NCBI GenBank assembly: GCA_965261545.1
Contig: CBDHDF010000011.1
Span: forward strand, 976,235-1,040,234
DNA from: Bdellovibrionales bacterium
GTDB lineage: Bacteria; Bdellovibrionota; Bdellovibrionia; Bdellovibrionales; UBA1609
Length of the DNA: 64,000 nucleotides
Reading direction: 5' to 3'
Both the position numbers and the translations under genes were made by a program. Positions 2,699 through 57,723 of the stretch are shown here, piece after piece. The first letter of the stretch is position 1; each line of letters opens with the position of its first letter. The notes under the pieces are model-generated. The model saw nothing but the letters and a program-made list of their open reading frames with translations. It did not search any database and was not told the DNA's origin.

Positions 2699-2809
2699 TT
2701 GACTGATTCCTTCTTTATTCCTTGTGGAATGATTAAAAATGGTATTCGTTTTTTTAATCGCTTCAGTTCACTCGAACTTCTTAGTATTTCTGAGCCTTTT
2801 AGACTTGAC

Positions 2810-37922: not shown

Positions 37923-40068
37923 GTTTCTGTCCAGAAAGGCCCATTTTTTGTTCTCTGACACTCCCCATTGAGCCTCCCAATGCCTCAATGGGGGAGTGAG
38001 AGTTGGAGATTTGCCACACAAACTCTACAGATTAAGGGGAAAAAGGTCTTTAAGCGACTTGCGCCCTAGTTTTTTCGATTTGAAGACGCACCCCTACCTT
38101 TGGAAGATTTTAGCACCTTCGACCTGGTCCATTGCTGTTATTCCTAATGGATAAATTTAGGTGACAGTTGATAATTCATGTCTTGCCAAGACAACAAAAT
38201 TATAGGCACAAACGGCATTCTTTACATACCTCTTAAAACCATCATGCCCTTTCCAGTAAGCAACTCTCATACCAAAACATCTCTTAAGGAATGAAATAAC
38301 AGCCTCTATTCCGGCTCTCCAATTGAGAAGATTTTTAAAGACCCAAGCACTTTTAACCATCTTTAATATTTTCATTCCTTTTTTTTCTGGGAAGCAAACA
38401 TCTTTAGCCCCATCTCTTTGGCCTCTTCAAGATTTTCTTTTGAAGCAAACCCACCATCTGCACTTACTTTTACAGGGCAAGCCCCATAGGTTTGTGTCAC
38501 TGAATTCATAACTTTTAAAAACATATCAGAGTCTGCGGGGTTGCCATCAGGGATCTGACAATCTAAAATCATGTTGCTTTGCCCTGAGGTCAGAAAGATT
38601 TTATGCCCAAACTCGACTTCTCTTTGCCCCTTTACAATAATGTCTGTATGCGGTTCAAAGATGGATAGGACCTTTTTTTCAGAAGATACTTTTTTCCCCT
38701 CAATAACTCTTTTTTGAGTTTGAAAGATGATTTTTTCCAGGTAGAAGGCAACATTTTCTAACTGTTTTAGACTCTTTTTCAAAGCATTCATCTTCACACA
38801 TTTTTGTTCTTTTTTTATCTTTCTGATGGTATCAGGTAATCCTTTGTTCAATTTGGTAGCGATTTTTAAAAGCTCCTTATAGCAAGGTAGTCTTTCCGCA
38901 TCATTTTTGGAATTATTAATTTTGTAAAGAAAGGTTTTTGCTCTCTTAAGATCTTCTCTTGAAATAAGTCGCCAAAAATCTTTCATGACATTTTTACGAA
39001 CTTTTTTAAATTCTCTTTCTGTAACTCTTATGCAGTCATATAAAAGCGATGCATCCGTTGGATGATGAATATTTGATTTCGTCACTGTACTGTCCACTCT
39101 CATTTTCTTACACGGCTCAATCTTTTGATCTCTTGCATCTGAAACTAAAGAGGCGCTAATAATTCCCCAAGTTTCTTCACTTATTTGAACAATCAAGTCC
39201 TGTAAGGTGGAGTGAGCGTAATTTTCTTCCAATTCAAGGCCCAGAAAAGCTCTGGTGGATACTGAATCGACAAGATTAAAGGCTAACGCACGATAGGAAA
39301 GACCTCTTATGGATTTAAGAATAGCCACCTTGAGAACTTGCTCCGATGTCATACCAATATCACCAGAATCTTTCTTTTCTTTAACAAGGTCTTCATGAAC
39401 CATATGGGCAAACTCTGGATGGCGATCAATGATGTTATTAATTTGCTGCAATTCTGTACTGAGTTGGTGGTTAGGATATTGGGAAAAGAGTCCCAACTGT
39501 GTCTTCTTCAAATGGCGCATAGTCCCCCCTTTGGTGAAAGTTTCTCTTTAATTTTTATATTAACATACGTTTTTTTGAGGGAAAAAAGTGAGCAAGGATG
39601 TCTTTTAAGAAGAAAAAAATCAGAGAGGTTCTCGGAGAACATGGATAAGAATTCTACCTCATAGAGAGGTTCCCACGCCTCCTAAAACCTACATAAAAAA
39701 TAAATGAAGAATAAAATATCAAAAATTATTTCTCTGAAAAAACACGTCAAGTATTTTTTGAAGTTGATGCGCAACGTAATGTTATTTCCCTGAAGGAGGT
39801 TTGAAATCACCACGGTGGAAACACAGGTTGATCCAACTCTTCCTCTCATATCAAGTAACCAGTTGATAGCCACATAAGTCACTGAAAGGGAGGGGCTGTG
39901 AAAGGTTCGTCAAGAGAGGGGGGGGGGAACTTATTTTATTTTTCCGTTTTATGTAAGTAACTGAATTTACACGGATTATGTTTGATGGACTCCATTTTAA
40001 AGCATAAAATCTAAAGGGAAGGCATGTAAATACTTAAAACTACTTAACTTTCTTCCCTGGACAGGAAC
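37923..40068 (-). mobile_element. IS5/IS1182-like element, copy 2 (2146 bp)
   Basis: Same IRs as copy 1. 6 bp TSD tatcta at 37917-37922 and 40069-40074. Removing the IS plus one TSD restores the prfC frame. Confidence 0.9.
38157..39520 (-). pseudogene. Frameshifted transposase of IS5-like copy 2
   Basis: The G5 run of copy 1 (gatgggggct) is G4 here (cccc at 38408-38411). This splits the ORF into 382 aa + 72 aa. Confidence 0.85.
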
Positions 40069-40175: not shown

Positions 40176-41180
40176 ATGAAAAAATCCCTCCCTCCTCTTT
40201 GCTTAACCCTTGATAACACTTTTAAAGCATTTTTTAAGCATGACCAGGACTTACTCAAGCCTTTGTTGCAGGATTTTCTTCCTTTGCCACCCGGTTGTCG
40301 GGTGGAACATGTTCAGTTGTTAGATGCCGAGGAAAACTCTTCAGAGGCAAGCAAGCCTTCGGGAAAGACCTTCATCTTGGATATGAAAATTCGTATTTCT
40401 CGCCGATTGTCCAGTGGAGAGTGGGTTGAAAATGAGACTGTGAATGTGGAGATGCAAACCGTCTCCCAAAAAAACTTCACAAATCGCCTTCTTGCCTATG
40501 CTGGACGGGTCTACTCCAATCAAGTGAAAGAAGGAGAAAAGTACGAGAAATTAAGAACTGTTTACTCCCTTGTTTTCAGTACTGTGGACCTTCCTGAACT
40601 ACGCACGGACAACAATTATTACCATACATGTAGCATGAGGCAGGATAGACGCCCTCATTTAAGGCTTACCGAGGGCATTCAGTTTGTCATTGTAGAATTG
40701 AACAAATTCATTGGCAGTTTAGACAGCCTTGTTGACCAGCGTGAAGCGTGGTGCTATTTCTTAAAAAAATCGGATGAGTTGGATCAACAAACAGGCCAAA
40801 AGCTAGCCAAAAAAGGAAGGGATATGGGAAGAGCCGTTAAAAATTTGTGGAATTTGTCTCAAGACGAACTCATGCGAGAGCGCCTTGAATCTGAAGATAA
40901 ACAGCGTCGGGATCGTTTGGCACAGATCGACACAGCCCATGAAGAAGGGCTTGAAAAAGGGCTTGAAAAAGGGCTTGAAAAAGGGCGTGAACAGGGACGT
41001 GAAGAGGGGCGTGAACAGGGGCGTGAACAGGGGCGAAGGGAAGAAAGAGAGACTTTTGTTTTAAAGTTACTTTCAGAAGGTATAGAAATTTCTGTTATAA
41101 CTACAGTGACAAAGTTTTCTGAATCTGAAATCAAGGCTCTCCAAAAAAGTAAAAATTTTAACAAAATGACACCTACTTGA
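40176..41180 (+). CDS. Rpn-family recombination-promoting nuclease / PD-(D/E)XK putative transposase (TIGR01784-like)
   Basis: N-terminal DNTFKAFF, ILDMKI...VNVEMQT (D...E-x-Q/K core), RLLAYAGRVYSNQ, and the C-terminal EGLEKGLEKGLEKGREQGREEG repeat typical of this family. Confidence 0.7.
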   Translation: MKKSLPPLCLTLDNTFKAFFKHDQDLLKPLLQDFLPLPPGCRVEHVQLLDAEENSSEASKPSGKTFILDMKIRISRRLSSGEWVENETVNVEMQTVSQKNFTNRLLAYAGRVYSNQVKEGEKYEKLRTVYSLVFSTVDLPELRTDNNYYHTCSMRQDRRPHLRLTEGIQFVIVELNKFIGSLDSLVDQREAWCYFLKKSDELDQQTGQKLAKKGRDMGRAVKNLWNLSQDELMRERLESEDKQRRDRLAQIDTAHEEGLEKGLEKGLEKGREQGREEGREQGREQGRREERETFVLKLLSEGIEISVITTVTKFSESEIKALQKSKNFNKMTPT

Positions 41181-41235: not shown

Positions 41236-41467
41236 AAATTCCCATTTTTACCTTTGCCAACAAGATGGATCGTGAGGGCCGTGAACCCATAGAAATCATT
41301 GATGGATGTGGAAAACACACTCGGAATGAGATGCTCTATCCTGTGACGGGGCCCATTGGCATTGGTGATACGATCACTTCGAGACACTCCCTTTACTTTT
41401 GGTGAAATGCCTCGGTTTTCACCAGAGGTTTTTGCCAAACTTCAAAACCTGTGGTTCTCCTTGAAAA
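41236..41467 (+). pseudogene. prfC: Mosaic prfC remnant (middle pieces with internal deletions)
   Basis: IPIFTFANKMDREGREPIEIID, then PIGIGDTITS...MPRFSPEVFAKL joined directly to NPVVLLE. These pieces lie hundreds of bp apart in the 37327-37922 copy. Confidence 0.6.
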
Positions 41468-41971
41468 AATGAAGGTAACAGAACCCGTCTTGGCTCCTGA
41501 TTTTTTGGTGAGGCCAGCTCTTTTGATCAGGTAGGTGGAAATGGCTCGATGAACGATGGCTAAGACCTCTCCCATGACCTTTGGATTTTTGGCAAAGAGG
41601 AATCTTATTTGAAAAGGAAAGCTAAGGACCCATTGTCGTAGGGGTTTTTGGGGAAAAACTTCATCAACTAAGTGGGCTGCACTTTCAGCCATTCTTCTTG
41701 CGCCGCAGCTTGGACAGAAGCCTCGACGCTTGCAGCTAAAGGCCACAAGCCTTTCATGGTGGCAAGATTCACACTGGGTTCTCAAGAAACCATGGGCAAG
41801 AATTCCACACTTGAGAAACTCATCGAATTCTTTTTTAACGAACTGGGGAAGGCCATTTTCATGCTCATTTTCTATGTGCCGGTAGAAAGTGAGTAGATTT
41901 TCTTGCACCAATTTGTAAAGGAGAGTCTTTTCAGGGCGGTGTCGTTGGTATTTGGGAGCGTTGTTAAAGAT
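41468..41971 (-). mobile_element. Internal fragment of an IS91-family element (copy 4)
   Basis: Identical to copy 1 from aatgaaggtaacag to gttgttaaagata. Both ends join unrelated DNA. Confidence 0.8.
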
Positions 41972-42133
41972 AGCCTCCAATGAGTTGCAAGCCACTATGG
42001 GCTACTTAGAACCTTATCTTTTCGATTCCATGTGGCGTGGGCGTATCAACTCCATTGCCGCCAAAGAACTACGGGATCAAGATGAACAGGTAGAGAGGTA
42101 TGCAATAAGCCAAACACTCGACCTCATCCTTGG

Positions 42134-42734: not shown

Positions 42735-44622
42735 GGGACTGTAAAAATAATTGTGTAACTGCAATTTTTTTCTTAAATCTTAAAGCCACTTATGTGGCTC
42801 CACTCCTGGTAAAAAGCACAGTCCCATATTATTCGTCAATGTATAATTGACATTTTTTCCTTCAAGCGATTTTGTCAGTCACAATGCATTATAAGTTAAT
42901 GGGGAGGTGGACATCTTCGCTGGTCTATATAATGGCCTCTTTAGTTACTCTGGACTTTTGATTGTATTATGGAGCCGTAATGGGATCATATCAGAACTGG
43001 AAAGAACTCAAATAAATAATTATCATCTTGGTTGAAAAAAAATCAGCAATGGCTCTCTCAAAAAAATGGAAATTCCAATCTCATCAAAGGGTTCATGTGT
43101 TTAGGTTCCCATACTATATTACCCCCTTTTTTTTATTTTTTTTAACTTAGGATATTCGAGAAATACCAGAATTGGGATGAAATATGAAAAAAAATGGAAA
43201 CCCAAATCTGCACCAAGAGGGCATGTATTTAGGTTCCCATACTATATTACCCTAACCATAGTCTCGGTATTCCAGTACTTCTGTCAACGCCTTAGAGGGG
43301 CTTTTAAGCCCCCTTATAAGGCAGGTGGTGGACCTTATTAAAAAACTTAGTTGTCAAAACGGTCACCGTATTCAATGGCAAACCTGTTCATGGCTGGCTT
43401 CCAGTTGTGTAATGGTCGTGTCCATCGCTTAGAGGCCATTTTTATCGCTAAATATACAACTTTTAAAGCCGACCGATCACTGGGAAATATCTTACGATTT
43501 CTGATCGCCTTGCGGATCACGCTATTTAACGACTCTATGGCGTTTGTGGTATAAAAAATCTTTCTGATTTCATCCGGATAATCGAAAATAGTGATGAGAT
43601 TGTCCCAATTCCTACGCCAAGACTTTTCAATATTAGGATACTTTGAAGACCACTTGGTACAAAATTCCTCAAGGGCCTTTTCAGCTTCTGTCAGAGTCGT
43701 AGAGCCATAAATGGACTTGAGGTCTTGGGCGACAGCTTTCATATCCTTGGAAGGAACATAGCGAAGGGAATTGCGGACCATATGGACAATGCACAGTTGC
43801 ACTTTAGACTTGGGAAAAGCCGCTGAAATGGCTTGAGGAAAACCTGTAAGACCATCTACAGAAAATATAAATACATCTTTCAACCCTCGATTTTGCAGCT
43901 CAGTCAAAACACTCAACCAAAACTTTGAACCCTCATTTTCAGAAATCCATAGGCCCAACAAGTCTTTCTGACCCTCCTCTGTAATACCAAGAGCTAGGTA
44001 AATCGCCTTATTAATAACTCTCTTGTCTTGATGGACCTTCACCACGATACAGTCCAAAAATACGATAGGGTAAGTGCTATCCAAGGGGCGGTTCTGCCAA
44101 GCCGTAACTTCATCAATAACAGCATCCGTCACGTTGGCTATCACTGAGTGGGATATCTCTGCACCATGGTAGAGGTCTTTGATAGCTCCTTGAATATCCC
44201 TGGTCGTCATTCCCCTCGCATAGAGGGTCAGGATACTGTCTTCAAAGCCCTCAAGACGAGTCTTACCCTTGGGAATGACTTGAGGTTCAAAGGAGGCACT
44301 TCGGTCACGGGGGACCTGAAGCTCCACCTCGCCTTTCTCTCCCTTTATGGTCTTTCTACTGTAACCATTGCGAGTGTTGGATTTGCGGGTCTCAGACTTC
44401 TCATGCCTCTCATAACCTAGGTGATCGTCCATTTCCGCATTAAGGGCCGTCTCTAAAACAACCTTCATCAGTTGACCCGTTATGTCGGATAAATCCTTTT
44501 GGGTCTTGACGTTCTTCGCTAGTTCCTTGCCTATTGTCTTGATATCCATTCTGCCTTCTCCTTTCAGGATGATAGTTCATCCTAATATGATTCGGCAGTT
44601 ACACAAAATAGTTTACAGGCTC
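42735..44622 (-). mobile_element. IS256-family element, copy B
   Basis: 9 bp TSD gcaattaaa at 42726-42734 and 44623-44631. Confidence 0.9.
43347..44549 (-). CDS. IS256-family transposase (copy B)
   Basis: 400 aa, identical to 19630-20832. Confidence 0.95.
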   Translation of the reverse strand: MDIKTIGKELAKNVKTQKDLSDITGQLMKVVLETALNAEMDDHLGYERHEKSETRKSNTRNGYSRKTIKGEKGEVELQVPRDRSASFEPQVIPKGKTRLEGFEDSILTLYARGMTTRDIQGAIKDLYHGAEISHSVIANVTDAVIDEVTAWQNRPLDSTYPIVFLDCIVVKVHQDKRVINKAIYLALGITEEGQKDLLGLWISENEGSKFWLSVLTELQNRGLKDVFIFSVDGLTGFPQAISAAFPKSKVQLCIVHMVRNSLRYVPSKDMKAVAQDLKSIYGSTTLTEAEKALEEFCTKWSSKYPNIEKSWRRNWDNLITIFDYPDEIRKIFYTTNAIESLNSVIRKAIRNRKIFPSDRSALKVVYLAIKMASKRWTRPLHNWKPAMNRFAIEYGDRFDN

Positions 44623-45276: not shown

Positions 45277-47004
45277 TTAAGAAAATGAGTCGAAACTCTC
45301 ACTTTGTGGTGGGCCTCTGGGTGGCCATAGGCTTGGAGGTTGTGAGGTGATGCCGAGATGAGTAAGAATTTTTTCAATGACCTGAGGGTCTTCAATGGAA
45401 GAAATGACTTTTACTTTTCCACCACACTCATGGCAAGTTTCAACGTCTATGTCAAAAACCCTCCTGAGCCTTTGAGCCCAGGTCATTCCTGAAGATTTTT
45501 TCTTGTTTGGTCTTGGCTCTGAATCTTCCAAATCTAAGGTTTTTTCCCTTGAGTCTTCACCGATGGAGGCTTCGATTTGGGGTTGCGGGACGATTGAGGA
45601 TCGATATTTGAAATTGGGCGCGAAAACTCCGTGGAATCTTGTGAGATTCACTCGTGGTCGAGGGATGAGGGAGGCAAGACGGCTAAGGAAATCAAGGGGG
45701 TCCAGAACGATATGAGTGGTTCCATTGTCATAGGCAGTTTTGAGTTTATAGACGACTTGGCCCCTGGCATTTAATGAAAGCCTTTCTTCACTGAGGCTGG
45801 GTCTTGAAATATACCGGCATACCCTCTCTCGCTTTTTTTTCTCATGGGCTCTACATGCGACTCCTCCATGGCCTGTTAGGCGCCAATTTTAATTGGCGCC
45901 TAACAGGCCATGAGGGAACTCAAGGAAGTTAGGGCTATCCCTGTTAAAATTCGTGATCAAGTCATTTGGACCCGCACAGATATCACTGGCAATGCCAACT
46001 CCTTATTTAAAGCCGCAGGCGTCCCCATCCCTCCCAGAATCCTTAATGCCCACAAGTGTGGATAAACAAAATACAACTATATGCGTTAATCCTTTAATAT
46101 CATTCGTTTGACGCAGATGCTGCTGTCAAACTCGGGCTTTACCTCTTGGTGATACAGTGTGAAGAGTCAGTGCTTTTTTCCCTTTGTGAGGACCGAGAGC
46201 TATTCTATAGGTGACTGATGATCCGTGGACTTGGTCCATACTGTCAGAGGCTTCCATAGCCAGATACTCTTGCCCTGTTTCATCCCTTAGGATAAGTCCC
46301 TTTTTTTCTAGGTGCTTGACCACTCTATGAGCTATGCTCACCAAGATGTGATCCATTTCACTTTGGGTGGGTGGAGTTATGGGGTGAAAATGAGGTTTAC
46401 CTTCGGGGAATGTGTACACTCCATCCAAATACATCATATGGAAATGAATATTGAGGTTGATGCTTCCGCCAAAGCGTTGAATGAAGGTAACAGAACCTGT
46501 CTTGGCTCCTGATTTTTTGGTGAGACCAGCTCTTTTGATCAGGTAGGTGGAAATGGCTCGATGAACGATGGCTAAGACCTCTCCCATGACCTTTGGATTT
46601 TTGGCAAAGAGGAATCTTATTTGAAAAGGAAAGCTAAGGACCCATTGTCGTAGGGGTTTTTGGGGAAAAACTTCATCAACTAAGTGGGCTGCACTTTCAG
46701 CCATTCTTCTTGCGCCGCAGCTTGGACAGAAGCCTCGACGCTTGCAGCTAAAGGCCACAAGCCTTTCATGGTGGCAAGATTCACACTGGGTTCTCAAGAA
46801 ACCATGGGCAAGAATTCCACACTTGAGAAACTCATCGAATTCTTTTTTAACGAACTGGGGAAGGCCATTTTCATGCTCATTTTCTATGTGCCGGTAGAAA
46901 GTGAGTAGATTTTCTTGCACCAATTTGTAAAGGAGAGTCTTTTCAGGGCGGTGTCGTTGGTATTTGGGAGCGTTGTTAAAGATATGGGGATCAACAAGGG
47001 CCAT
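45277..47004 (-). pseudogene. IS91 transposase split by the 266 bp replacement
   Basis: N-terminal 292 aa ORF (46126-47004) and C-terminal 124 aa ORF (45277-45651). Confidence 0.85.
45867..45912. repeat. 46 bp palindrome (perfect 22 bp arms, 2 nt centre)
   Basis: catggcctgttaggcgccaatt-tt-aattggcgcctaacaggccatg, checked base by base. The first 5 nt belong to IS91. Confidence 0.9.
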
Positions 47005-47173
47005 GGCCTTTGTTGGAAGGCAAATTCAATGCCAACTGTGGGTGAGCACCAAAAAACTTCTGGGAGAAGCCTACTCCATGTATGGAGCAGAGCATTGTAA
47101 TGATCCCTTAAACCAGAGAAGGTATAAGGATGCTGATCAGAATGACCCCAAGCTTGCTGGCCCCCTCTCAGCC

Positions 47174-49727
47174 CAATGGCATTCGTTTTTGCAGAAGATT
47201 TTTCCACATTTTTCTGACTCCCTCTAACATACTGAGTTAAGGGGGCTTTTATCTTTTTTCTTTTTCCGAAAAAAAATACTTGAGTCCACCCCATCGTTGT
47301 GTCACATTATATTTGAACCATTCCCAAAGGGGAGAGACTCAAATGGACCCACGCATAGAGACATTGCCTTCAACAACTTTTTTTGGAAGACGCTTGACGC
47401 GCAAGCAAATTGCCGACATTCAAAAGACGGTGGCGCTATTTCCTTCTTTAAGTCGCCGTGAACTGGGTTATACAGTTTGTGAGCATCTTGGTTGGCTAAC
47501 TCCCAAAGGTGATCATCGCATCCAATCGTGCCTTCGTATGCTTGAGACGCTAGAGGAACTTGACATTCTATCCCTGCCAGAAAAAGACATGTCAAAGCGG
47601 AGTGTCCCCTCCAAAAAAATCACTTGGACACACCGAACAGATGAAAAGCCTCTCATCAACGATAAACTAGACTCATTGACCCCACTTTCTTTGCAAATCG
47701 TAACTGATCAAGAGGCCATTAAGGAATGGAATGAAGTTGTCGATCGGCATCATTATCTCAATTACAGACGTCCCTTTGGTCCCCACTTACGTTATTTCAT
47801 CTTAGATAATTGTGGGCGAAGATTGGGTTGTCTTTTATTTGAAGCTGGCACATCCACGTTGCCTTGCCGTGATGAATGGATCGGTTGGCAAAATCGAGCT
47901 TACAAAAAGCACTTGAATTTAGTGGTGAACAATAGTCGATTTTTGATCTTTCCCTGGGTAAAGGTTCGCCATCTTGCTTCGATGGCTTTATCTATGGCAA
48001 CTCGCCAACTTCCCACAGACTGGGAGTTAAAACATGCTTTCAAACCTGTACTCATGGAGACTTTTGTCGACCTTACCAAATTTAATGCCACGAGCTATCG
48101 TGCTGCCAACTGGCTTTATTTGGGCAAAACAAATGGGAGTCGTGCCTACAAAAATGTAAAGGGAAAAACTCAAAAAGGTGTTTATGTTCAACCTCTGACA
48201 AAGAATTATCAGTCTATCTTATTGAATGGCCCCCAATGCGCTATCAAGAAACCCGTCGGGAAACCCACCATCAAGCCACATAAGAACTTGGCTGAGCCTA
48301 TGCTAGAGGACTCTTTTGTGCATCTTTGGCAAAACATCATCAAGACAGTGGTTATCATTGCAGATGAGTACGACCGAACCTGGCAAAAGCGTCAACGTGT
48401 CTTGAATACATTGTTGATTATACTTTTCATCTTCCGACTTGTTTTCTCTAAAGGAAAACAAGGTTATGATACAACTTTGATTGAACTTTGGGAGCAGTGT
48501 CGCATATTAGACATTGAACTCCCTCAACCTAAACCAGTTCGGGCATCCACTATGTGTAGTGCACGGGCTAAAGTAGATGAAAATATATTTAAAGTTTTGC
48601 ATGATGAAATTCTTAAACAAGACGGTATATCCAATTCTAGTACCTTATGGAAGGGCCATAAGGTTTTCGCAGTGGATGGATCGAAAATAAATTTACCACG
48701 TCAACTCGTAGATAATGGGTATCAGCAACCATGGGAAAAAGCATGGTACCCTCAAGGTCTTGTCAGTTGCCTGTACCAACTACAGTCGAAGATTCCTGTG
48801 GATTTTGATCTCTTTGCCCATAACAATGAGAGAAAGGCTGCACAAACTCATTTCAAAAAATTGTTTGAAAACGATGTTGTGGTTTATGATCGTGGCTATT
48901 ATTCCTACGAAATGCTTCATGAGCATAAGGTGCGAAGTCTGCATGCGGTGTTTAGGATAAGGAGAAATGCCAACACTGTTTTTGATGAATTTATTAATAA
49001 TGATCAAAAAGACTCAGTGATCCAAGTCATTCCTAGCAAGCAAATTCTGAAAGAACTACATAAAAAAAAGCCACAAGACGACTTCAAAGCCTACGCTTTG
49101 CGTTTGGTCAAATATAAAATTGGACAAACTACTTTTGTTCTAGGAACAACCTTAATGGATCAAAAAAAATATTCCATTGATGATCTGGCCAATCTCTATC
49201 ATGGACGCTGGAGTATAGAGGAACTGTACAAAATATCCAAAGAACTGATGACCATTGAAGAGTTTCATTCTCAAAGTGAAAGGGGAGTCAAACAAGAATT
49301 GTTTGCACACTTCACACTTATCACTCTGACAAGATTATTTTCCAACTACACGGAAGACCGTCTTAATACATCTCAATCCCATAGTAAAAAACAAACCATG
49401 CAGACAAACTTTAAAAACAATTTACTGACAATTGCAAGAAATATTGAAGGTCTTTTTCTTCAACAAAAGGTAGTGCTTAGTAAAACCCTCAATTGCATCA
49501 TTACAAATATGAAGACCTGCCGACAAAGGCTACGTCCGAATAGGCATTACGACCGAGTTTCTAGAAAACCCATCGGAGTATGGAGACCCAGTAAAGAGGT
49601 TAGGGGGGCTATGGCCAACGGATAATCACATGGATCAAAGAAAAAAACTTGGGGTTAGCCCACCCCCGAGGAGTTAGAGGTTCAAATCCTTAACCGAATG
49701 GGATCTCTCACTAAACGAATGCCATTG
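47174..49727 (+). mobile_element. IS4-family element encoding a DUF4338-DDE fusion transposase (2554 bp)
   Basis: 15 bp perfect IRs caatggcattcgttt / aaacgaatgccattg. 10 bp TSD cctctcagcc at 47164-47173 and 49728-49737. Confidence 0.85.
47343..49625 (+). CDS. Fusion transposase: N-terminal DUF4338-like domain + C-terminal IS4-type DDE domain
   Basis: The likely start is the ATG at 47343 (RBS ggggagag). The N-terminal half has HHYLNY, NNSRFLIFPWVKVRHLAS, LMETFVD and ATSYRAANWLYLGKTNG. The C-terminal half has AVDGSKINLP, VYDRGYYSYEM and LYHGRWSIEELYKISK. Confidence 0.75.
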   Translation: MDPRIETLPSTTFFGRRLTRKQIADIQKTVALFPSLSRRELGYTVCEHLGWLTPKGDHRIQSCLRMLETLEELDILSLPEKDMSKRSVPSKKITWTHRTDEKPLINDKLDSLTPLSLQIVTDQEAIKEWNEVVDRHHYLNYRRPFGPHLRYFILDNCGRRLGCLLFEAGTSTLPCRDEWIGWQNRAYKKHLNLVVNNSRFLIFPWVKVRHLASMALSMATRQLPTDWELKHAFKPVLMETFVDLTKFNATSYRAANWLYLGKTNGSRAYKNVKGKTQKGVYVQPLTKNYQSILLNGPQCAIKKPVGKPTIKPHKNLAEPMLEDSFVHLWQNIIKTVVIIADEYDRTWQKRQRVLNTLLIILFIFRLVFSKGKQGYDTTLIELWEQCRILDIELPQPKPVRASTMCSARAKVDENIFKVLHDEILKQDGISNSSTLWKGHKVFAVDGSKINLPRQLVDNGYQQPWEKAWYPQGLVSCLYQLQSKIPVDFDLFAHNNERKAAQTHFKKLFENDVVVYDRGYYSYEMLHEHKVRSLHAVFRIRRNANTVFDEFINNDQKDSVIQVIPSKQILKELHKKKPQDDFKAYALRLVKYKIGQTTFVLGTTLMDQKKYSIDDLANLYHGRWSIEELYKISKELMTIEEFHSQSERGVKQELFAHFTLITLTRLFSNYTEDRLNTSQSHSKKQTMQTNFKNNLLTIARNIEGLFLQQKVVLSKTLNCIITNMKTCRQRLRPNRHYDRVSRKPIGVWRPSKEVRGAMANG

Positions 49728-49796
49728 CCTCTCAGCCCGGAGGGGAGGGCAAACCAGGCCATTGTGGAAAAACCTCGTGTAGCCGGCACAGATTTC

Positions 49797-51685
49797 GGGA
49801 CTGTAAAAATAATTGTGTAACTGCAATTTTTTTCTTAAATCTTAAAGCCACTTATGTGGCTCCACTCCTGGTAAAAAGCACAGTCCCATATTATTCGTCA
49901 ATGTATAATTGACATTTTTTCCTTCAAGCGATTTTGTCAGTCACAATGCATTATAAGTTAATGGGGAGGTGGACATCTTCGCTGGTCTATATAATTGGCC
50001 TCTTTAGTTACTCTGGACTTTTGATTGTATTATGGAGCCGTAATGGGATCATATCAGAACTGGAAAGAACTCAAATAAATAATTATCATCTTGGTTGAAA
50101 AAAAATCAGCAATGGCTCTCTCAAAAAAATGGAAATTCCAATCTCATCAAAGGGTTCATGTGTTTAGGTTCCCATACTATATTACCCCCTTTTTTTTATT
50201 TTTTTTAACTTAGGATATTCGAGAAATACCAGAATTGGGATGAAATATGAAAAAAAATGGGAACCCAAATCTGCACCAAGAGGGCATGTATTTAGGTTCC
50301 CATACTATATTACCCTAACCATAGTCTCGGTATTCCAGTACTTCTGTCAACGCCTTAGAGGGGCTTTTAAGCCCCCTTATAAGGCAGGTGGTGGACCTTA
50401 TTAAAAAACTTAGTTGTCAAAACGGTCACCGTATTCAATGGCAAACCTGTTCATGGCTGGCTTCCAGTTGTGTAATGGTCGTGTCCATCGCTTAGAGGCC
50501 ATTTTTATCGCTAAATATACAACTTTTAAAGCCGACCGATCACTGGGAAATATCTTACGATTTCTGATCGCCTTGCGGATCACGCTATTTAACGACTCTA
50601 TGGCGTTTGTGGTATAAAAAATCTTTCTGATTTCATCCGGATAATCGAAAATAGTGATGAGATTGTCCCAATTCCTACGCCAAGACTTTTCAATATTCGG
50701 ATACTTTGAAGACCACTTGGTACAAAATTCCTCAAGGGCCTTTTCAGCTTCTGTCAGAGTCGTAGAGCCATAAATGGACTTGAGGTCTTGGGCGACAGCT
50801 TTCATATCCTTGGAAGGAACATAGCGAAGGGAATTGCGGACCATATGGACAATGCACAGTTGTACTTTAGACTTGGGAAAAGCCGCTGAAATGGCTTGAG
50901 GAAAACCTGTAAGACCATCTACAGAAAATATAAATACGTCTTTCAACCCTCGATTTTGCAGCTCAGTCAAAACACTCAACCAAAACTTTGAACCCTCATT
51001 TTCAGAAATCCATAGGCCCAACAAGTCTTTCTGACCCTCCTCTGTAATACCAAGAGCTAGGTAAATCGCCTTATTAATAACTCTCTTGTCTTGATGGACC
51101 TTCACCACGATACAGTCCAAAAATACGATAGGGTAAGTGCTATCCAAGGGGCGGTTCTGCCAAGCCGTAACTTCATCAATAACAGCATCCGTCACGTTGG
51201 CTATCACTGAGTGGGATATCTCTGCACCATGGTAGAGGTCTTTGATAGCTCCTTGAATATCCCTGGTCGTCATTCCCCTCGCATAGAGGGTCAGAATACT
51301 GTCTTCAAAGCCCTCAAGACGAGTCTTGCCTTTGGGAATGACTTGGGGCTCAAAGGAGGCACTTCGGTCACGGGGGACCTGAAGCTCCACCTCGCCTTTC
51401 TCTCCCTTTATGGTCTTTCTACTGTAACCATTGCGAGTGTTGGATTTGCGGGTCTCAGACTTCTCATGCCTCTCATAACCTAGGTGATCGTCCATTTCCG
51501 CATTAAGAGCTGTCTCTAAAACAACCTTCATCAGTTGACCCGTTATGTCGGATAAATCCTTTTGGGTCTTGACGTTCTTCGCTAGTTCCTTGCCTATTGT
51601 CTTGATATCCATTTTGCCTTCTCCTTTCAGGATGATAGTTCATCCTAATATGATTCGGCAGTTACACAAAATAGTTTACAGGCTC
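49797..51685 (-). mobile_element. IS256-family element, copy C
   Basis: 8 bp TSD cagatttc at 49789-49796 and 51686-51693. Confidence 0.9.
50410..51612 (-). CDS. IS256-family transposase (copy C)
   Basis: 400 aa, identical protein. Confidence 0.95.
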   Translation of the reverse strand: MDIKTIGKELAKNVKTQKDLSDITGQLMKVVLETALNAEMDDHLGYERHEKSETRKSNTRNGYSRKTIKGEKGEVELQVPRDRSASFEPQVIPKGKTRLEGFEDSILTLYARGMTTRDIQGAIKDLYHGAEISHSVIANVTDAVIDEVTAWQNRPLDSTYPIVFLDCIVVKVHQDKRVINKAIYLALGITEEGQKDLLGLWISENEGSKFWLSVLTELQNRGLKDVFIFSVDGLTGFPQAISAAFPKSKVQLCIVHMVRNSLRYVPSKDMKAVAQDLKSIYGSTTLTEAEKALEEFCTKWSSKYPNIEKSWRRNWDNLITIFDYPDEIRKIFYTTNAIESLNSVIRKAIRNRKIFPSDRSALKVVYLAIKMASKRWTRPLHNWKPAMNRFAIEYGDRFDN

Positions 51686-53267: not shown

Positions 53268-54617
53268 ATGAATGATATCACCAAGTTCATCGTCCAGGAT
53301 GTTCGCTGCTTTGAAGGCCGGCAGGATTTCGATATACGCCCTATTACCTTTTTAGTTGGTGAAAATAGTACCGGAAAGTCCACCGTTCTCGGCTGCTTTC
53401 AAATATTAGCTAATGCTATAAACGAATCATTATTTCACAATAAAAAAGAATTAATAGACTTTAATTTAAATTTCAATGTTGAACCCTACCAAATGGGTGT
53501 CTTCACCGATATTATTAAAAAATCAGATCCTCAAAAAATATCCTTTCAAATGGGTTTTGGGTTTCAGAACGAAGAGAACGAACTTTTTGAGTTTATTCTC
53601 ACCATGACAGAAAGAGAAGGGGGATATGAACCCATGATTCATAAACAAACATTTGTGTTTAACGATGTGATTTATGATCTGTATCCATCTCAAATTTTCC
53701 GTCAAAAAATAAGAGATGGTAATCGCCTAGATAAGGATATTAGCATTAAATCCACTGACGAAGGAGAAAAAAAGAAATTTATTATTAAATACTCTAGTAC
53801 TCTCACTCTCCTCGACTTATTCTTTAGCGTAAGACTCAAAGAGAAAGAGATATCCATCGTAGAACAAGAATTGCGTGATAGTCTTAAAGATAAAGAAGAT
53901 CGTACTCCTTCCCTGTTCTATTCTATGAATGAAGCAGTTGAAGCAGTTTCCAGTTTCGCACCTATTCGTTCGGAGCCACAACGCACCTATAACCCTTTGA
54001 GCCAGATAAATAGCCCTGATGGTCGCAATATACCCATGCAATTGATGAATATGTCGAAGACAGAAGAAAAAAAATGGAAAGAAATCAAAAAACAATTGTT
54101 AGATTTTGGAAAGAAGTCAGGCTTATTTACAGATATCGGTGTTAAAACATTTGGAAAGTCTAAAGGAGATCCGTTTCAGTTGCAAGTAAAAGCAAACGGT
54201 CCAAAGACCAATTTGATAGACGTAGGGTATGGAGTAAATCAGATTCTTCCCATTTTAGTAAGTATTCTGAGTGAACAGGTAGGATCAATTTTTCTAATGC
54301 AACAACCAGAAGTCCACCTGCATCCCAAGGGGCAGTCCGAGCTATCTTCTTTATTGGTTCAATCTTTTAAGAAAAAAAAGCAGCAATTTGTTGTTGAAAC
54401 CCACAGCGATTACATGATAGATCGTGTGCGCATTGAAATCATGAATGGTAACATAAAACCAGAGGATGTTTCGCTCATTTATATGGAGCCCATGGGTACA
54501 AAAGTAGATGTACATAATATTCGTTTTGATAATCAAGCCAATCTTTTGGATGCACCAAAAGGCTATAGAAACTTCTTTCTTAAAGAATCTAATCAATTAT
54601 TAGGTTTTGAAGGCTAG
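53268..54617 (+). CDS. ABC/AAA-type ATPase of the AAA_15/AAA_21 + DUF3696-like kind
   Basis: N-terminal RCFEG...ITFLVGENSTGKST (Walker A), VGYGVNQILPILV (signature-like), LMQQPEVHLHP (Walker B) and VETHSDYMIDR (H-loop). RBS agaagggga. Confidence 0.75.
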   Translation: MNDITKFIVQDVRCFEGRQDFDIRPITFLVGENSTGKSTVLGCFQILANAINESLFHNKKELIDFNLNFNVEPYQMGVFTDIIKKSDPQKISFQMGFGFQNEENELFEFILTMTEREGGYEPMIHKQTFVFNDVIYDLYPSQIFRQKIRDGNRLDKDISIKSTDEGEKKKFIIKYSSTLTLLDLFFSVRLKEKEISIVEQELRDSLKDKEDRTPSLFYSMNEAVEAVSSFAPIRSEPQRTYNPLSQINSPDGRNIPMQLMNMSKTEEKKWKEIKKQLLDFGKKSGLFTDIGVKTFGKSKGDPFQLQVKANGPKTNLIDVGYGVNQILPILVSILSEQVGSIFLMQQPEVHLHPKGQSELSSLLVQSFKKKKQQFVVETHSDYMIDRVRIEIMNGNIKPEDVSLIYMEPMGTKVDVHNIRFDNQANLLDAPKGYRNFFLKESNQLLGFEG

Positions 54618-54621
54618 TGTC

Positions 54622-55062
54622 ATGTGTATTATTTTGGACACTAATAAATACAGTGACTTTCTTGATCTTAACAATAAAGATATGGAAGCTATAAGACATT
54701 GGATAGAAAAGAAGAAAGGGAAAATCGCCTGGTCTCCCACAGAGAAACTCAAGCAAGAGTTAGAAACACATGGAAAAATGAAGAAACAATTCAAAGTGTA
54801 TCGTCAAGCAGGGCTTATAAAAAATATTGATAATAGAAAAGTCAACGATGAAAAGAAAAAATTATTAAATCAAAAAGATTCGGAAGCTCTGAAATCTGAT
54901 GATCCAGATATCATAGCACTCGCTATCACTGCTCAGGTTAAAGTATTAGTTTCAGAAGATCGCAACCTATGTGACGATTTTAAAAAAATCATTCCAGGAG
55001 GAAAAATTTACACACGCAAAAGAGATAATCAGCACCTCCTTCAGCCTGACATGTGTCCATAA
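54622..55062 (+). CDS. PIN-like domain protein (putative nuclease partner)
   Basis: The ATG at 54622 lies 4 nt after the ATPase stop. CIILDTNKY (first acidic strand), then SDDPDIIALAITAQVKVLVSEDRNLCDDF (the D-x4-A-x-A...LV-S/T-x-D-x-x-F pattern of PIN domains). Confidence 0.55.
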   Translation: MCIILDTNKYSDFLDLNNKDMEAIRHWIEKKKGKIAWSPTEKLKQELETHGKMKKQFKVYRQAGLIKNIDNRKVNDEKKKLLNQKDSEALKSDDPDIIALAITAQVKVLVSEDRNLCDDFKKIIPGGKIYTRKRDNQHLLQPDMCP

Positions 55063-55834: not shown

Positions 55835-57723
55835 GAGCCTGTAAACTATTTTGTGTAACTGCCGAATCATATTAGGATGAACTATCATCCTGAAAGGAGA
55901 AGGCAAAATGGATATCAAGACAATAGGCAAGGAACTAGCGAAGAACGTCAAGACCCAAAAGGATTTATCCGACATAACGGGTCAACTGATGAAGGTTGTT
56001 TTAGAGACAGCTCTTAATGCGGAAATGGACGATCACCTAGGTTATGAGAGGCATGAGAAGTCTGAGACCCGCAAATCCAACACTCGCAATGGTTACAGTA
56101 GAAAGACCATAAAGGGAGAGAAAGGCGAGGTGGAGCTTCAGGTCCCCCGTGACCGAAGTGCCTCCTTTGAGCCCCAAGTCATTCCCAAAGGCAAGACTCG
56201 TCTTGAGGGCTTTGAAGACAGTATTCTGACCCTCTATGCGAGGGGAATGACGACCAGGGATATTCAAGGAGCTATCAAAGACCTCTACCATGGTGCAGAG
56301 ATATCCCACTCAGTGATAGCCAACGTGACGGATGCTGTTATTGATGAAGTTACGGCTTGGCAGAACCGCCCCTTGGATAGCACTTACCCTATCGTATTTT
56401 TGGACTGTATCGTGGTGAAGGTCCATCAAGACAAGAGAGTTATTAATAAGGCGATTTACCTAGCTCTTGGTATTACAGAGGAGGGTCAGAAAGACTTGTT
56501 GGGCCTATGGATTTCTGAAAATGAGGGTTCAAAGTTTTGGTTGAGTGTTTTGACTGAGCTGCAAAATCGAGGGTTGAAAGACGTATTTATATTTTCTGTA
56601 GATGGTCTTACAGGTTTTCCTCAAGCCATTTCAGCGGCTTTTCCCAAGTCTAAAGTACAACTGTGCATTGTCCATATGGTCCGCAATTCCCTTCGCTATG
56701 TTCCTTCCAAGGATATGAAAGCTGTCGCCCAAGACCTCAAGTCCATTTATGGCTCTACGACTCTGACAGAAGCTGAAAAGGCCCTTGAGGAATTTTGTAC
56801 CAAGTGGTCTTCAAAGTATCCGAATATTGAAAAGTCTTGGCGTAGGAATTGGGACAATCTCATCACTATTTTCGATTATCCGGATGAAATCAGAAAGATT
56901 TTTTATACCACAAACGCCATAGAGTCGTTAAATAGCGTGATCCGCAAGGCGATCAGAAATCGTAAGATATTTCCCAGTGATCGGTCGGCTTTAAAAGTTG
57001 TATATTTAGCGATAAAAATGGCCTCTAAGCGATGGACACGACCATTACACAACTGGAAGCCAGCCATGAACAGGTTTGCCATTGAATACGGTGACCGTTT
57101 TGACAACTAAGTTTTTTAATAAGGTCCACCACCTGCCTTATAAGGGGGCTTAAAAGCCCCTCTAAGGCGTTGACAGAAGTACTGGAATACCGAGACTATG
57201 GTTAGGGTAATATAGTATGGGAACCTAAATACATGCCCTCTTGGTGCAGATTTGGGTTCCCATTTTTTTTCATATTTCATCCCAATTCTGGTATTTCTCG
57301 AATATCCTAAGTTAAAAAAAATAAAAAAAAGGGGGTAATATAGTATGGGAACCTAAACACATGAACCCTTTGATGAGATTGGAATTTCCATTTTTTTGAG
57401 AGAGCCATTGCTGATTTTTTTTCAACCAAGATGATAATTATTTATTTGAGTTCTTTCCAGTTCTGATATGATCCCATTACGGCTCCATAATACAATCAAA
57501 AGTCCAGAGTAACTAAAGAGGCCAATTATATAGACCAGCGAAGATGTCCACCTCCCCATTAACTTATAATGCATTGTGACTGACAAAATCGCTTGAAGGA
57601 AAAAATGTCAATTATACATTGACGAATAATATGGGACTGTGCTTTTTACCAGGAGTGGAGCCACATAAGTGGCTTTAAGATTTAAGAAAAAAATTGCAGT
57701 TACACAATTATTTTTACAGTCCC
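55835..57723 (+). mobile_element. IS256-family element, copy D2, inserted into D1
   Basis: 8 bp TSD tcgagggt at 55827-55834 and 57724-57731. Confidence 0.9.
55908..57110 (+). CDS. IS256-family transposase (copy D2)
   Basis: 400 aa intact. Confidence 0.95.
   Translation: MDIKTIGKELAKNVKTQKDLSDITGQLMKVVLETALNAEMDDHLGYERHEKSETRKSNTRNGYSRKTIKGEKGEVELQVPRDRSASFEPQVIPKGKTRLEGFEDSILTLYARGMTTRDIQGAIKDLYHGAEISHSVIANVTDAVIDEVTAWQNRPLDSTYPIVFLDCIVVKVHQDKRVINKAIYLALGITEEGQKDLLGLWISENEGSKFWLSVLTELQNRGLKDVFIFSVDGLTGFPQAISAAFPKSKVQLCIVHMVRNSLRYVPSKDMKAVAQDLKSIYGSTTLTEAEKALEEFCTKWSSKYPNIEKSWRRNWDNLITIFDYPDEIRKIFYTTNAIESLNSVIRKAIRNRKIFPSDRSALKVVYLAIKMASKRWTRPLHNWKPAMNRFAIEYGDRFDN

What the first reader, a model, noticed from the sequence alone, without database searches (positions are those of the whole stretch)
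47174..49727. IS4-type transposase fused to a DUF4338 (DruA-like) domain
The 761 aa protein has an N-terminal ~300 aa region with the motif set I associate with DUF4338 (HHYL, RFLI-PWV, LAS, ETFVD, YRAANW..G.T.G). This is the domain known from Druantia DruA. It is followed by a complete IS4-type DDE domain.

The element has perfect 15 bp IRs and a 10 bp TSD, so it is a recent, bona fide transposition. The role of DUF4338 is unknown. An active mobile element that depends on it is a handle on that function, for example DNA or target recognition.
Basis: partly seen in the sequence, partly recalled or inferred. Interest (0 to 1): 0.55.

Follow-up and report, generated by a model that had tools for sequence, protein, structure and literature searches.

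The report
IS4 transposon with Mom-like GNAT domain
This is an intact jumping gene of the IS4 family whose transposase carries an extra DNA-binding plus enzyme-like module (the "DruA" domain of the Druantia phage-defence system), and that module turns out to travel with at least six transposase families, which gives a way to test what it does.

Summary
Window 47174-49727 is a 2,554-bp insertion sequence with perfect 15-bp inverted repeats, a 10-bp target duplication (CCTCTCAGCC) and one ORF (47343-49625; 760 aa, not 761).

Pfam assigns aa 75-267 to DruA/DUF4338 (123 bits) and aa 438-662 to DDE_Tnp_1. NCBIfam calls it an IS4 transposase.

- **A real family.** More than 1,000 protein clusters share the architecture. 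In genomes, 62 elements share the termini CAATGGCATT, mostly with 10-bp duplications at GC-rich CCC-N10-GGG sites.
- **The added module.** An AlphaFold model (pLDDT 90) shows a winged-helix-like helical domain plus a GNAT fold. Its nearest sequence family is phage Mu Mom, a glycyl-tRNA-dependent DNA-adenine modifier. Five Mom functional residues align to invariant or near-invariant residues here.
- **An add-on.** A GNAT-less relative (Robbsia) has the same ends and duplication length.
- **Recurrent partner.** The module is fused to, or encoded next to, IS4, Tn5-like, IS630, ISAzo13, IS66 and ISAs1 transposases. Eight of 10 sampled stand-alone genes sit beside a transposase gene.
- **Not Druantia.** No Druantia genes are nearby and PADLOC DruA models do not match.

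The module's activity and role in transposition are inferred, not shown. I found no paper describing the association.

The parts
47164..47173 (.). Left copy of the 10-bp target-site duplication, CCTCTCAGCC
   Evidence: Identical to 49728-49737 and abuts the left inverted repeat.
47174..47188 (+). Left terminal inverted repeat, CAATGGCATTCGTTT
   Evidence: 15/15 complementary to 49713-49727. The first 10 nt are invariant in 62 related elements and in the GNAT-less Robbsia element.
47189..47342 (+). 5' untranslated region with a ribosome-binding-like AAGGGGAG at 47327-47334
   Evidence: Read from the sequence. No sigma-70-like promoter was scored here.
47343..49625 (+). Single ORF of 760 aa plus stop: wHTH-GNAT-IS4 transposase fusion
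   Evidence: A 100%-identical protein, P0001, is in public collections. Homologues start at the same MD.xI.
47376..47582 (+). N-terminal helical, winged-helix-like domain (aa ~12-80)
   Evidence: The AF2 model has helices at aa 20-32, 38-49 and 60-72 with pLDDT above 80. Mean identity across the family is 65%. Calling it a winged helix is my reading of the helix pattern; no fold match was obtained for it alone.
47688..48227 (+). GNAT-fold core of the DruA/DUF4338 module (aa 116-295). Invariant or near-invariant residues include H137, Y138, R176, D177, R199, S213, E239, D243, Y252, N256 and W257
   Evidence: Pfam PF14236. Foldseek against PDB returns GNAT acetyltransferases with target TM-scores mostly 0.5-0.7. 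Conservation. Alignment to Mom.
48228..48308 (+). Variable linker between the module and the transposase (aa 296-322)
   Evidence: pLDDT below 50 at aa 310-317. Mean identity is 17%. Similarity to the GNAT-less Robbsia transposase starts at aa 319.
48309..49622 (+). Complete IS4-family transposase (aa 323-760). Catalytic D445 (48675-48677), D516 (48888-48890) and E626 (49218-49220), plus the Y619-R622-E626-K633 signature
   Evidence: PF01609 at aa 438-662. NF033592 at aa 372-665. The catalytic residues are invariant in the alignment.
49713..49727 (-). Right terminal inverted repeat
49728..49737 (.). Right copy of the target-site duplication, CCTCTCAGCC
   Evidence: The reconstructed empty site is a GC-rich palindrome, GCCCCCTC-tcagcccg-GAGGGG.

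Best explanation
**What it is.** Window 47174-49727 is an intact, recently inserted member of a large subgroup of IS4-family insertion sequences.

**Shown.**
- The C-terminal 440 aa are a standard IS4 DDE transposase.
- Elements of this subgroup have CAATGGCATT termini. They insert with a 10-bp duplication, preferentially at GC-rich CCC-N10-GGG sites or G/C tracts.
- The N-terminal 300 aa are a separate two-domain module: a helical winged-helix-like domain plus a GNAT fold of the DruA/DUF4338 family.
- This module is as conserved as the catalytic core.
- It is not needed for end recognition or duplication length.
- It has been joined many times, as a fusion or as an adjacent gene, to unrelated DDE transposases.

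**Inferred.** The module is probably an active Mom-like transferase that acts on nucleic acid. Its donor is more likely an aminoacyl-tRNA or another non-CoA acyl donor than acetyl-CoA. Being part of the transposase, which works mainly on the DNA that encodes it, the enzyme would be brought to the element's ends and the target DNA. There it would chemically mark bases. The payoff for the element could be protection of transposition intermediates or the carrier DNA from host nucleases. It could also be a replication-linked or immunity-type control of transposition.

**Confidence.** About 0.9 that it is an IS4 element with an accessory wHTH-GNAT module. About 0.3 for DNA modification as the module's activity.
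For: **Identity and mobility.**
- Domain assignments.
- Inverted repeats and duplication.
- DDE and YREK residues are invariant.
- 426 confirmed genomic loci, with 12 or more copies in a single genome assembly.
- 62 elements share the termini, 34 with exact 10-bp duplications; the target logo is.
- The host genome holds full-length copies and fragments on several large contigs.

**The module is functional.**
- Mean identity is 65% for the winged-helix-like domain and 61% for the GNAT core. The DDE core is 59% and the linkers are 17-36%.
- 14 residues are invariant across 37 sequences, 36 of them stand-alone homologues only 31-42% identical.

**Fold.** The AF2 model has pLDDT 90. All top Foldseek matches in the PDB are GNATs.

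**Mom link.**
- Mom (PF25680) is the only other GNAT-type Pfam family that relatives hit, 4 of 40 members; P0270 scores 27.6 bits against a cut-off of 27.1.
- The profile-profile alignment spans the whole core over 149 columns, E=0.0032.
- Mom H58, Y59, S124, D149 and Y159 are important for activity (PMC13219725). They align with H137, Y138, S213, D243 and Y252 here.
- The loop PWVKVRHLAS lacks the glycine-rich CoA-binding motif, as does the same loop in Mom.

**An add-on.** The Robbsia element is 1,427 bp with a 426-aa transposase. It has the ends CAATGGCATTCGGTTAAG and a 10-bp duplication, and no GNAT.

**Recurrent partner of transposases.**
- Fusions to Tn5-like, IS630, ISAzo13, IS66 and ISAs1 transposases.
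- 8 of 10 sampled stand-alone genes abut a co-directional DDE transposase gene.
Against: - No activity has been measured for any DruA/DUF4338 protein.
- The hhalign probability is low (9.8%), and the window protein itself does not hit the Mom model at E<=1.
- Mom R111 and R151, both essential, have only nearby candidates (R199, K246), not column-aligned counterparts. Mom's essential HTH-like insertion is absent.
- The solved Mom structure (8bv8) is not among the 50 Foldseek matches listed. Those are dominated by acetyl-CoA enzymes such as SpeG and RimI.
- A transposase-level enzyme would be very scarce, so a genome-wide protective role is hard to picture.
- The benefit to the element is conjecture.
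Confidence: 0.55

Rival explanations
1. The N-terminal module is a non-catalytic DNA- or protein-binding adaptor. It would steer the transposase to particular targets (GC-rich palindromes, G/C tracts) or to a host factor, or act as a regulatory ligand sensor.
For: - It contains a winged-helix-like domain.
- The family has a marked target preference, CCC-N10-GGG and poly-G/C tracts.
- GNAT folds are sometimes used as binding domains (general knowledge).
Against: - Symmetric GC-rich target consensus sequences are already typical of IS4-family cores without such a domain (established knowledge for IS231 and IS10).
- The same module accompanies IS630, IS66, Tn5-like and ISAzo13 transposases, which I would expect to differ in target rules.
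- The invariant residues are polar and sit at the positions of Mom's functional residues. That pattern is not expected of a mere adaptor.
- Only one insertion of the GNAT-less relative was examined, so a change in target preference is not excluded.
Confidence: 0.2
2. The module is an ordinary acetyl-CoA-dependent protein or small-molecule acetyltransferase. It would acetylate the transposase itself or a host protein, such as a nucleoid protein, to tune transposition.
For: The best structural matches are acetyl-CoA enzymes such as SpeG and RimI. Lysine acetylation of DNA-binding proteins is common (general knowledge).
Against: - The Q/R-x-x-G-x-G/A pyrophosphate-binding motif is absent from the beta4-alpha3 loop (PWVKVRHLAS).
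- No Acetyltransf_* Pfam family is hit by any of 40 relatives, whereas Mom is.
- Sequence identity to the structural matches is only 10-13%.
Confidence: 0.15
3. The DruA-like part is defence-system cargo, a Druantia component carried by the element, and is unrelated to transposition.
For: Pfam and NCBI name the family after Druantia DruA. Mobile elements often carry defence genes (general knowledge).
Against: - It is fused in frame to the transposase, not carried as a separate cargo gene.
- PADLOC DruA models give no hit.
- No druB-E or DUF1998 helicase was found among the window ORFs scanned.
- The same fusion or adjacency recurs with six transposase families.
Confidence: 0.05
4. It is a chimeric ORF produced by assembly or by a recent accidental fusion, with no biological meaning.
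For: None was found.
Against: - 1,271 protein clusters match at E<=1e-5, and the best 120 are all full-length with both domains.
- 426 genomic loci occur across several phyla.
- Both halves are under similar constraint.
Confidence: 0.01

Closest known systems
IS4-family insertion sequences. The nearest element seen here is the unnamed 1,427-bp IS on Robbsia andropogonis plasmid p2 (NZ_CP139168.1, 106163-107589)
   Same: - DDE transposase with the Y-2-R-3-E-6-K signature, 40% identical over aa 319-747.
- Identical first 13 nt of the terminal repeats (CAATGGCATTCGG versus CAATGGCATTCGT).
- A 10-bp target duplication.
   Different: The window element is 1.1 kb longer. It encodes about 318 extra N-terminal residues (wHTH plus GNAT) in frame with the transposase.
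DruA of type I Druantia (Pfam PF14236, formerly DUF4338; PADLOC models PDLC00001/2)
   Same: Homologous domain: Pfam score 123 bits. Stand-alone relatives of the module hit PADLOC DruA weakly, best E=3.6e-7.
   Different: - The window protein gives no PADLOC hit.
- There is no druBCDE operon.
- The partner is a transposase, not a DUF1998 helicase.
- DruA's own activity is uncharacterised in the papers I could search.
Mom of bacteriophage Mu (Pfam PF25680; PDB 8bv8). A GNAT-fold enzyme that transfers glycine from Gly-tRNA(Gly) to N6 of adenine in dsDNA (PMC13219725)
   Same: - GNAT core alignable end to end.
- H-Y, S, D and Y functional residues and the YQASNF/YRAANW motif are shared.
- Neither has the glycine-rich CoA loop.
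- Both are encoded on DDE transposable elements, since Mu is a transposing phage.
   Different: - Mom's essential HTH-like insertion (aa ~175-209) is absent. The module has an N-terminal winged-helix-like domain instead.
- R111 and R151 are not column-aligned.
- Mom is a separate, late-expressed gene, not a transposase domain.
- The statistical support is modest.
Insertion sequences with accessory proteins (IS66 TnpA/TnpB, IS200/605 TnpB, IS21 IstB)
   Same: A non-transposase function is kept inside the element and co-transcribed with the transposase. In one locus the DruA-like gene sits between IS66 tnpB and the DDE gene.
   Different: The accessory here is a GNAT-fold putative enzyme. It is shared across several IS families and is often fused to the transposase.

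Membership tests
IS4 family of insertion sequences | DDE catalytic triad with the Y-(2)-R-(3)-E-(6)-K signature | tested here: met
   D445, D516, E626 and Y619/R622/E626/K633 are all invariant among 23 aligned homologues.
IS4 family of insertion sequences | Curated family HMM above its cut-off | tested here: met
   NF033592 scores 158.4 bits against a cut-off of 115. PF01609 scores 75.3 bits against 23.
IS4 family of insertion sequences | Terminal inverted repeats and a fixed-length target duplication | tested here: met
   15/15 inverted repeats and a 10-bp duplication. The same termini and duplication length recur in related elements.
IS4 family of insertion sequences | Mobility: several copies at different sites | tested here: met
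   Identical or near-identical copies and fragments lie on several large contigs of the host genome. Other genomes hold 12 or more copies, each in a different flank. The window itself holds one copy.
Pfam DruA / DUF4338 (PF14236) | Family HMM above the gathering score | tested here: met
   123.5 bits against 27, at aa 75-267.
Druantia type I system (DruA as a system component) | Match to models built from Druantia DruA proteins | tested here: not met
   PADLOC gives no hit at E<=0.1 for the whole protein or for aa 1-320.
Druantia type I system (DruA as a system component) | Operon with druB, druC, druD and the DruE helicase (DUF1998) | tested here: not met
   The neighbours are IS91-like and IS256 transposase genes. 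No Druantia model is hit by ten larger window ORFs.
GNAT superfamily | GNAT alpha/beta fold | tested here: met
   The AF2 model has pLDDT 90. 139 PDB matches have E<=0.001; the 50 listed are almost all GNATs, with target TM-scores mostly 0.5-0.7.
GNAT superfamily | Q/R-x-x-G-x-G/A acetyl-CoA pyrophosphate-binding loop after strand beta4 | tested here: not met
   The loop reads PWVKVRHLAS. No glycine is conserved there in 120 fused or 36 stand-alone homologues.
Mom family (PF25680) | Family HMM above the gathering score | tested here: not met
   No Mom hit for the window protein at E<=1. Some relatives do hit: P0270 scores 27.6 bits against 27.1, and 4 of 40 members reach E<=0.001.
Mom family (PF25680) | Residues shown to matter for Mom activity (W48, H58, Y59, R111, S124, D149, R151, Y159, W181) | tested here: inconclusive
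   H58, Y59, S124, D149 and Y159 align with H137, Y138, S213, D243 and Y252, which are invariant or nearly so. R111 and R151 have only neighbouring candidates (R199, K246). W48 and W181 have no counterpart.
Mom family (PF25680) | HTH-like insertion (aa ~175-209) required for activity | tested here: not met
   The insertion is absent from the aligned region. A short loop replaces it.
Mom family (PF25680) | Gly-tRNA-dependent modification of adenine in dsDNA | not testable with these tools
   This needs biochemistry or nucleoside mass spectrometry.

The most novel reading that the evidence does not exclude
The DruA/DUF4338 module is a Mom-like enzyme that uses an aminoacyl-tRNA or another non-CoA donor to put a bulky mark on DNA. 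It would be primarily a transposon accessory function, recruited repeatedly by at least six DDE transposase families to mark element ends, targets or carrier DNA. Druantia type I would have borrowed it from transposons, or the reverse, as its DNA-marking or DNA-sensing component, occupying the place that the methyltransferase DruM has in type II.
Probability: 0.2. Interest if true: 0.8.

Novelty: new variant of a known kind. Interest (0 to 1): 0.55.

Why it matters
**DruA is a blank spot.** DruA is the signature gene of type I Druantia and no function has been assigned to it.

**What this work adds.**
- Many of its closest homologues are parts of transposons, not of defence islands.
- Its nearest characterised sequence relative is a DNA-hypermodifying enzyme.

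**A simple test becomes available.** The question "what does DruA do" can be approached with a single-protein mobile element:
- mutate S213, D243 or H137 and measure transposition;
- look for a modified base in the DNA.

**A practical warning.** IS-borne DUF4338 proteins are being named "Druantia protein DruA" by annotation pipelines. This can inflate defence-system counts.

**For transposon biology.** An enzyme domain shared across several IS families would be a new kind of accessory function.

Tried and rejected
- **Single-sequence AlphaFold of aa 1-335.** It gave an unusable model (pLDDT 39.8). It was replaced by a run with a 120-sequence alignment.
- **Look-up of the exact protein's contigs.** Nothing was on record, so I did not determine the source organism. 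The species-representative genome set has no copy closer than 61%.
- **Profile search of PDB sequences.** No hit.
- **Papers on DUF4338 or PF14236 with transposases, or on GNAT-transposase fusions.** None found. ISfinder could not be queried.
- **Papers on DruA's mechanism.** Only Druantia III (DruH/DruE) work was found.
- **Promoter scan of the 5' end.** Nothing above background.
- **Did the element interrupt a gene?** Rejoining the flanks restores no meaningful ORF. The site is non-coding, upstream of an IS91-like gene.
- **Is the tRNA-like string GGTTCAAATCC near the right end a tRNA fragment?** ARAGORN finds no tRNA there.
- **Is the 501-aa transposase repeated in the window a GNAT-less sibling?** No. 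It is a different, IS1634-like protein.
Full report
**What is in the window**

Positions 47174-49727 are bounded by a perfect 15-nt inverted repeat, CAATGGCATTCGTTT at 47174-47188 and its complement at 49713-49727. Immediately outside lies a 10-nt direct repeat, CCTCTCAGCC, at 47164-47173 and 49728-49737.

Inside is one long ORF, 47343-49625 on the + strand. It is 760 aa from an ATG preceded by AAGGGGAG, or 781 aa from an upstream TTG. All homologues begin at the same MD.xI, which supports the ATG.

Domain assignments:
- Pfam places aa 75-267 in PF14236 (DruA, formerly DUF4338) at 123.5 bits against a cut-off of 27.
- Pfam places aa 438-662 in DDE_Tnp_1.
- NCBIfam's IS4 model NF033592 scores 158 bits against a cut-off of 115.

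The catalytic D445, D516 and E626 and the IS4 signature Y619-R622-E626-K633 are present and invariant in homologues.

**It belongs to a large, active family**

A search of 5.8 billion protein clusters returned 1,271 clusters at E<=1e-5. The best 120 are all 687-793 aa long, carry both Pfam domains and are 51-63% identical to the window protein, apart from the 100%-identical P0001.

In one genome per species, 426 loci encode a relative. They come from Gamma- and Alphaproteobacteria, Bryobacterales, Desulfobacterota and Tectimicrobiota, with 12 or more copies in single assemblies.

In the 80 loci fetched plus the window I found 62 elements of 2.45-2.56 kb whose two ends start with the same ten bases, CAATGGCATT. 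Thirty-four have an exact 10-bp duplication. Most of the rest lie in G or C homopolymers, where the length is ambiguous.

The reconstructed targets give a symmetric logo: C-rich at positions -2 to 0, a 10-bp core that is 74-93% G+C, and G-rich at +11 to +13, against a 58% G+C background. The window insertion fits this pattern. It sits in GCCCCCTC-tcagcccg-GAGGGG in a 40% G+C genome, in non-coding DNA upstream of an IS91-like gene.

The host genome holds several full-length copies and fragments. The window holds one.

**What the N-terminal part is**

With a 120-sequence alignment, AlphaFold gives a confident model of aa 1-335, with pLDDT 90 and pTM 0.69. It shows:
- a small helical domain at aa ~12-80, which I read as winged-helix-like;
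- a linker;
- an alpha/beta domain at aa ~116-295;
- a disordered stretch at aa 310-317.

Foldseek against the PDB returns GNAT acyltransferases almost exclusively (SpeG, RimI and others; E about 1e-5; target TM-scores mostly 0.5-0.7). The viral library returns GNAT domains, several of them fused to endonuclease-like proteins. This agrees with the one published remark I found, which calls DUF4338 a GNAT domain (PMC10853773).

At the sequence level no Acetyltransf family is hit. The only other GNAT-type Pfam family reached by relatives of the module is Mom (PF25680). It is hit by 4 of 40 members, with one just above the gathering score, and it is also listed in precomputed annotations.

Mom of phage Mu has been shown to transfer glycine from Gly-tRNA(Gly) to adenine N6 in double-stranded DNA (PMC13219725).

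A profile-profile alignment of the module against a Mom family alignment covers the whole core: 149 columns, E=0.0032, but only 9.8% hhalign probability. It makes these pairings:

| Mom residue or motif | Residue or motif here |
|---|---|
| H58/Y59 | H137/Y138 |
| S124 | S213 |
| D149 | D243 |
| Y159 | Y252 |
| YQASNF | YRAANW |

The Mom numbering offset was verified.

The two essential arginines, R111 and R151, have only neighbouring candidates (R199, K246). Mom's essential HTH-like insertion is missing, while the module has its own N-terminal winged-helix-like domain. Neither protein has the glycine-rich CoA loop; the loop here reads PWVKVRHLAS.

The solved Mom structure (8bv8) is not among the 50 Foldseek matches shown. 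The Mom link is therefore a reasoned lead, not a demonstrated membership.

**The module is functional but is an add-on**

Across 22 homologues, mean identity to the window protein by region is:

| Region | Mean identity |
|---|---|
| Winged-helix-like domain | 65% |
| GNAT core | 61% |
| DDE core | 59% |
| Linkers | 36% and 17% |

The module is therefore under the same constraint as the transposase core.

A 1,427-bp IS on a Robbsia plasmid encodes a 426-aa transposase that is 40% identical to aa 319-747, with no N-terminal module. It has the ends CAATGGCATTCGGTTAAG (18/18) and a 10-bp duplication, GTAAGCCCGA. End recognition and strand-transfer spacing therefore do not need the module.

**The module goes with transposases in general**

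An exhaustive HMMER search with aa 1-320 found 6,051 clusters (50% identity) at E<=0.001 and 438 at E<=1e-30. The best 150 fall into two groups.

Fusions to DDE transposases:
- IS4-type, 20 of the 40 longer proteins scanned;
- Tn5-like, with Tnp_DNA_bind and Dimer_Tnp_Tn5 domains;
- IS630, with HTH plus DDE_3;
- ISAzo13;
- IS66, where the module is C-terminal;
- an ISAs1 transposase in Thiodictyon also carries it.

Stand-alone proteins of about 300 aa, which align end to end with aa 1-295. I looked at the surroundings of ten of them:
- Eight lie directly beside, and co-directional with, a DDE transposase gene, three of them with a 4-nt overlap. The partners are ISAs1-like (24 contigs read), IS66 (four cases, one lying between tnpB and the DDE gene) and DDE_Tnp_1 (three cases).
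- One has no transposase neighbour.
- One is cut by a contig end.

In Thiodictyon plasmid pTs485 a copy of the IS4-type fusion has been split by an IS91 insertion. A rough neighbour-joining tree groups the modules mostly by partner family. That suggests old associations with occasional switches, but the tree has no support values.

**Relation to Druantia**

The homology is real (Pfam), but the system membership is not:
- PADLOC's DruA models do not hit the window protein. They hit its stand-alone relatives only weakly, best E=3.6e-7.
- Nothing among the window ORFs I scanned resembles druB-E.
- One IS-adjacent protein is nevertheless named "Druantia anti-phage system protein DruA" in NCBI.
- I found no paper on DruA's mechanism; recent work concerns DruH/DruE.

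**How it most likely works**

Shown:
- an IS4 transposase with defined ends, duplication length and target preference;
- an extra, conserved winged-helix-like plus GNAT module that is dispensable for the basic reaction and is recurrently linked to transposases.

Inferred: the module is an active transferase of the Mom type that acts on nucleic acid. It would be delivered by its own DNA-binding domain and by the transposase to the element's ends and target DNA, where it marks bases. The advantage might be protection of intermediates or carrier DNA from nucleases, or a modification-based control of transposition comparable to Dam control of IS10 and IS50 (established knowledge). I put this at about 0.3.

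Rivals:
- a non-catalytic targeting or regulatory adaptor (0.2);
- an acetyl-CoA-dependent protein acetyltransferase (0.15);
- defence cargo (0.05);
- an artefact (excluded).

**Novelty and limits**

The element itself is a new member of a database-visible family annotated simply as "IS4 family transposase". Three points appear undescribed in the literature I could search:
- the module is a general transposase partner;
- it is Mom-like;
- much of what Pfam calls DruA sits in transposons.

ISfinder and subscription journals could not be checked.

The context sample is small (ten genes) and was drawn from relatives of one query. The Mom relationship rests on weak statistics. No biochemical claim is tested.

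Noticed in passing
window 2823-4328(-), 30025-31530(-), 35512-37017(-); 19630-20832(+), 43347-44549(-), 50410-51612(-), 55908-57110(+); 18291-19580(+); 28131-29495(+), 38372-39520(-); 46126-47004(-), 41393-41995(-); 40176-41180(+); 22865-24388(+): The window is packed with transposase genes: three 501-aa ORFs of equal length (one checked: IS1634-like/DDE_Tnp_1) and four 400-aa ORFs of equal length (one checked: IS256 family). There are also IS66, IS5-like, truncated IS91-like, PDDEXK_2 and Mu-transposase-C-type genes. The genome is highly IS-laden.
   Followed up: partly
window 53268-54617(+) and 54607-55062(+): An AAA_15/AAA_21 ATPase hits PADLOC NsnB (1e-44) and AriA (2.5e-23). A 151-aa ORF with no family match overlaps its end. 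Together they may be a two-gene defence pair.
   Followed up: no
window 2737-2751: AAATGGTATTCGTTT matches the IS end at 13 of 15 positions and occurs once. It may be a relic end of a related element.
   Followed up: no
L097 225-1115 (protein P0361, GCA_036523315.1): NCBI names this protein 'Druantia anti-phage system protein DruA'. It sits directly upstream of a DDE_Tnp_1 transposase gene on a 2.9-kb contig. IS-borne DUF4338 proteins may be miscounted as defence genes.
   Followed up: partly
L001 4971-9743 (Thiodictyon plasmid pTs485): A DUF4338 ORF and an IS4 transposase ORF are separated by an integrase plus IS91 transposase insertion, and the whole lies inside a split DUF2235 gene. This is a nested-insertion record of the same fusion family.
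   Followed up: partly
loci L007, L023, L028, L057, L058, L061-L064, L071 (flanks of the elements): Many family members sit in runs of 10-14 G or C, and L057 has two tandem copies sharing such a tract. The family strongly prefers homopolymer G:C tracts and CCC-N10-GGG palindromes.
   Followed up: partly
BFVD matches to model m088140329a8e (e.g. I7KLM9, A0A4Y5JUX8, A0A8S5L6I5): Several phage proteins annotated as homing endonuclease or endonuclease-like contain a domain that matches the module's GNAT fold. This may be another nuclease-GNAT pairing.
   Followed up: no
proteins P0187 (560 aa) and one unidentified member of alignment A3: The DruA-like module also occurs with MORN repeats, and once with a guanylate/adenylate cyclase domain. 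Not every architecture involves a transposase.
   Followed up: no
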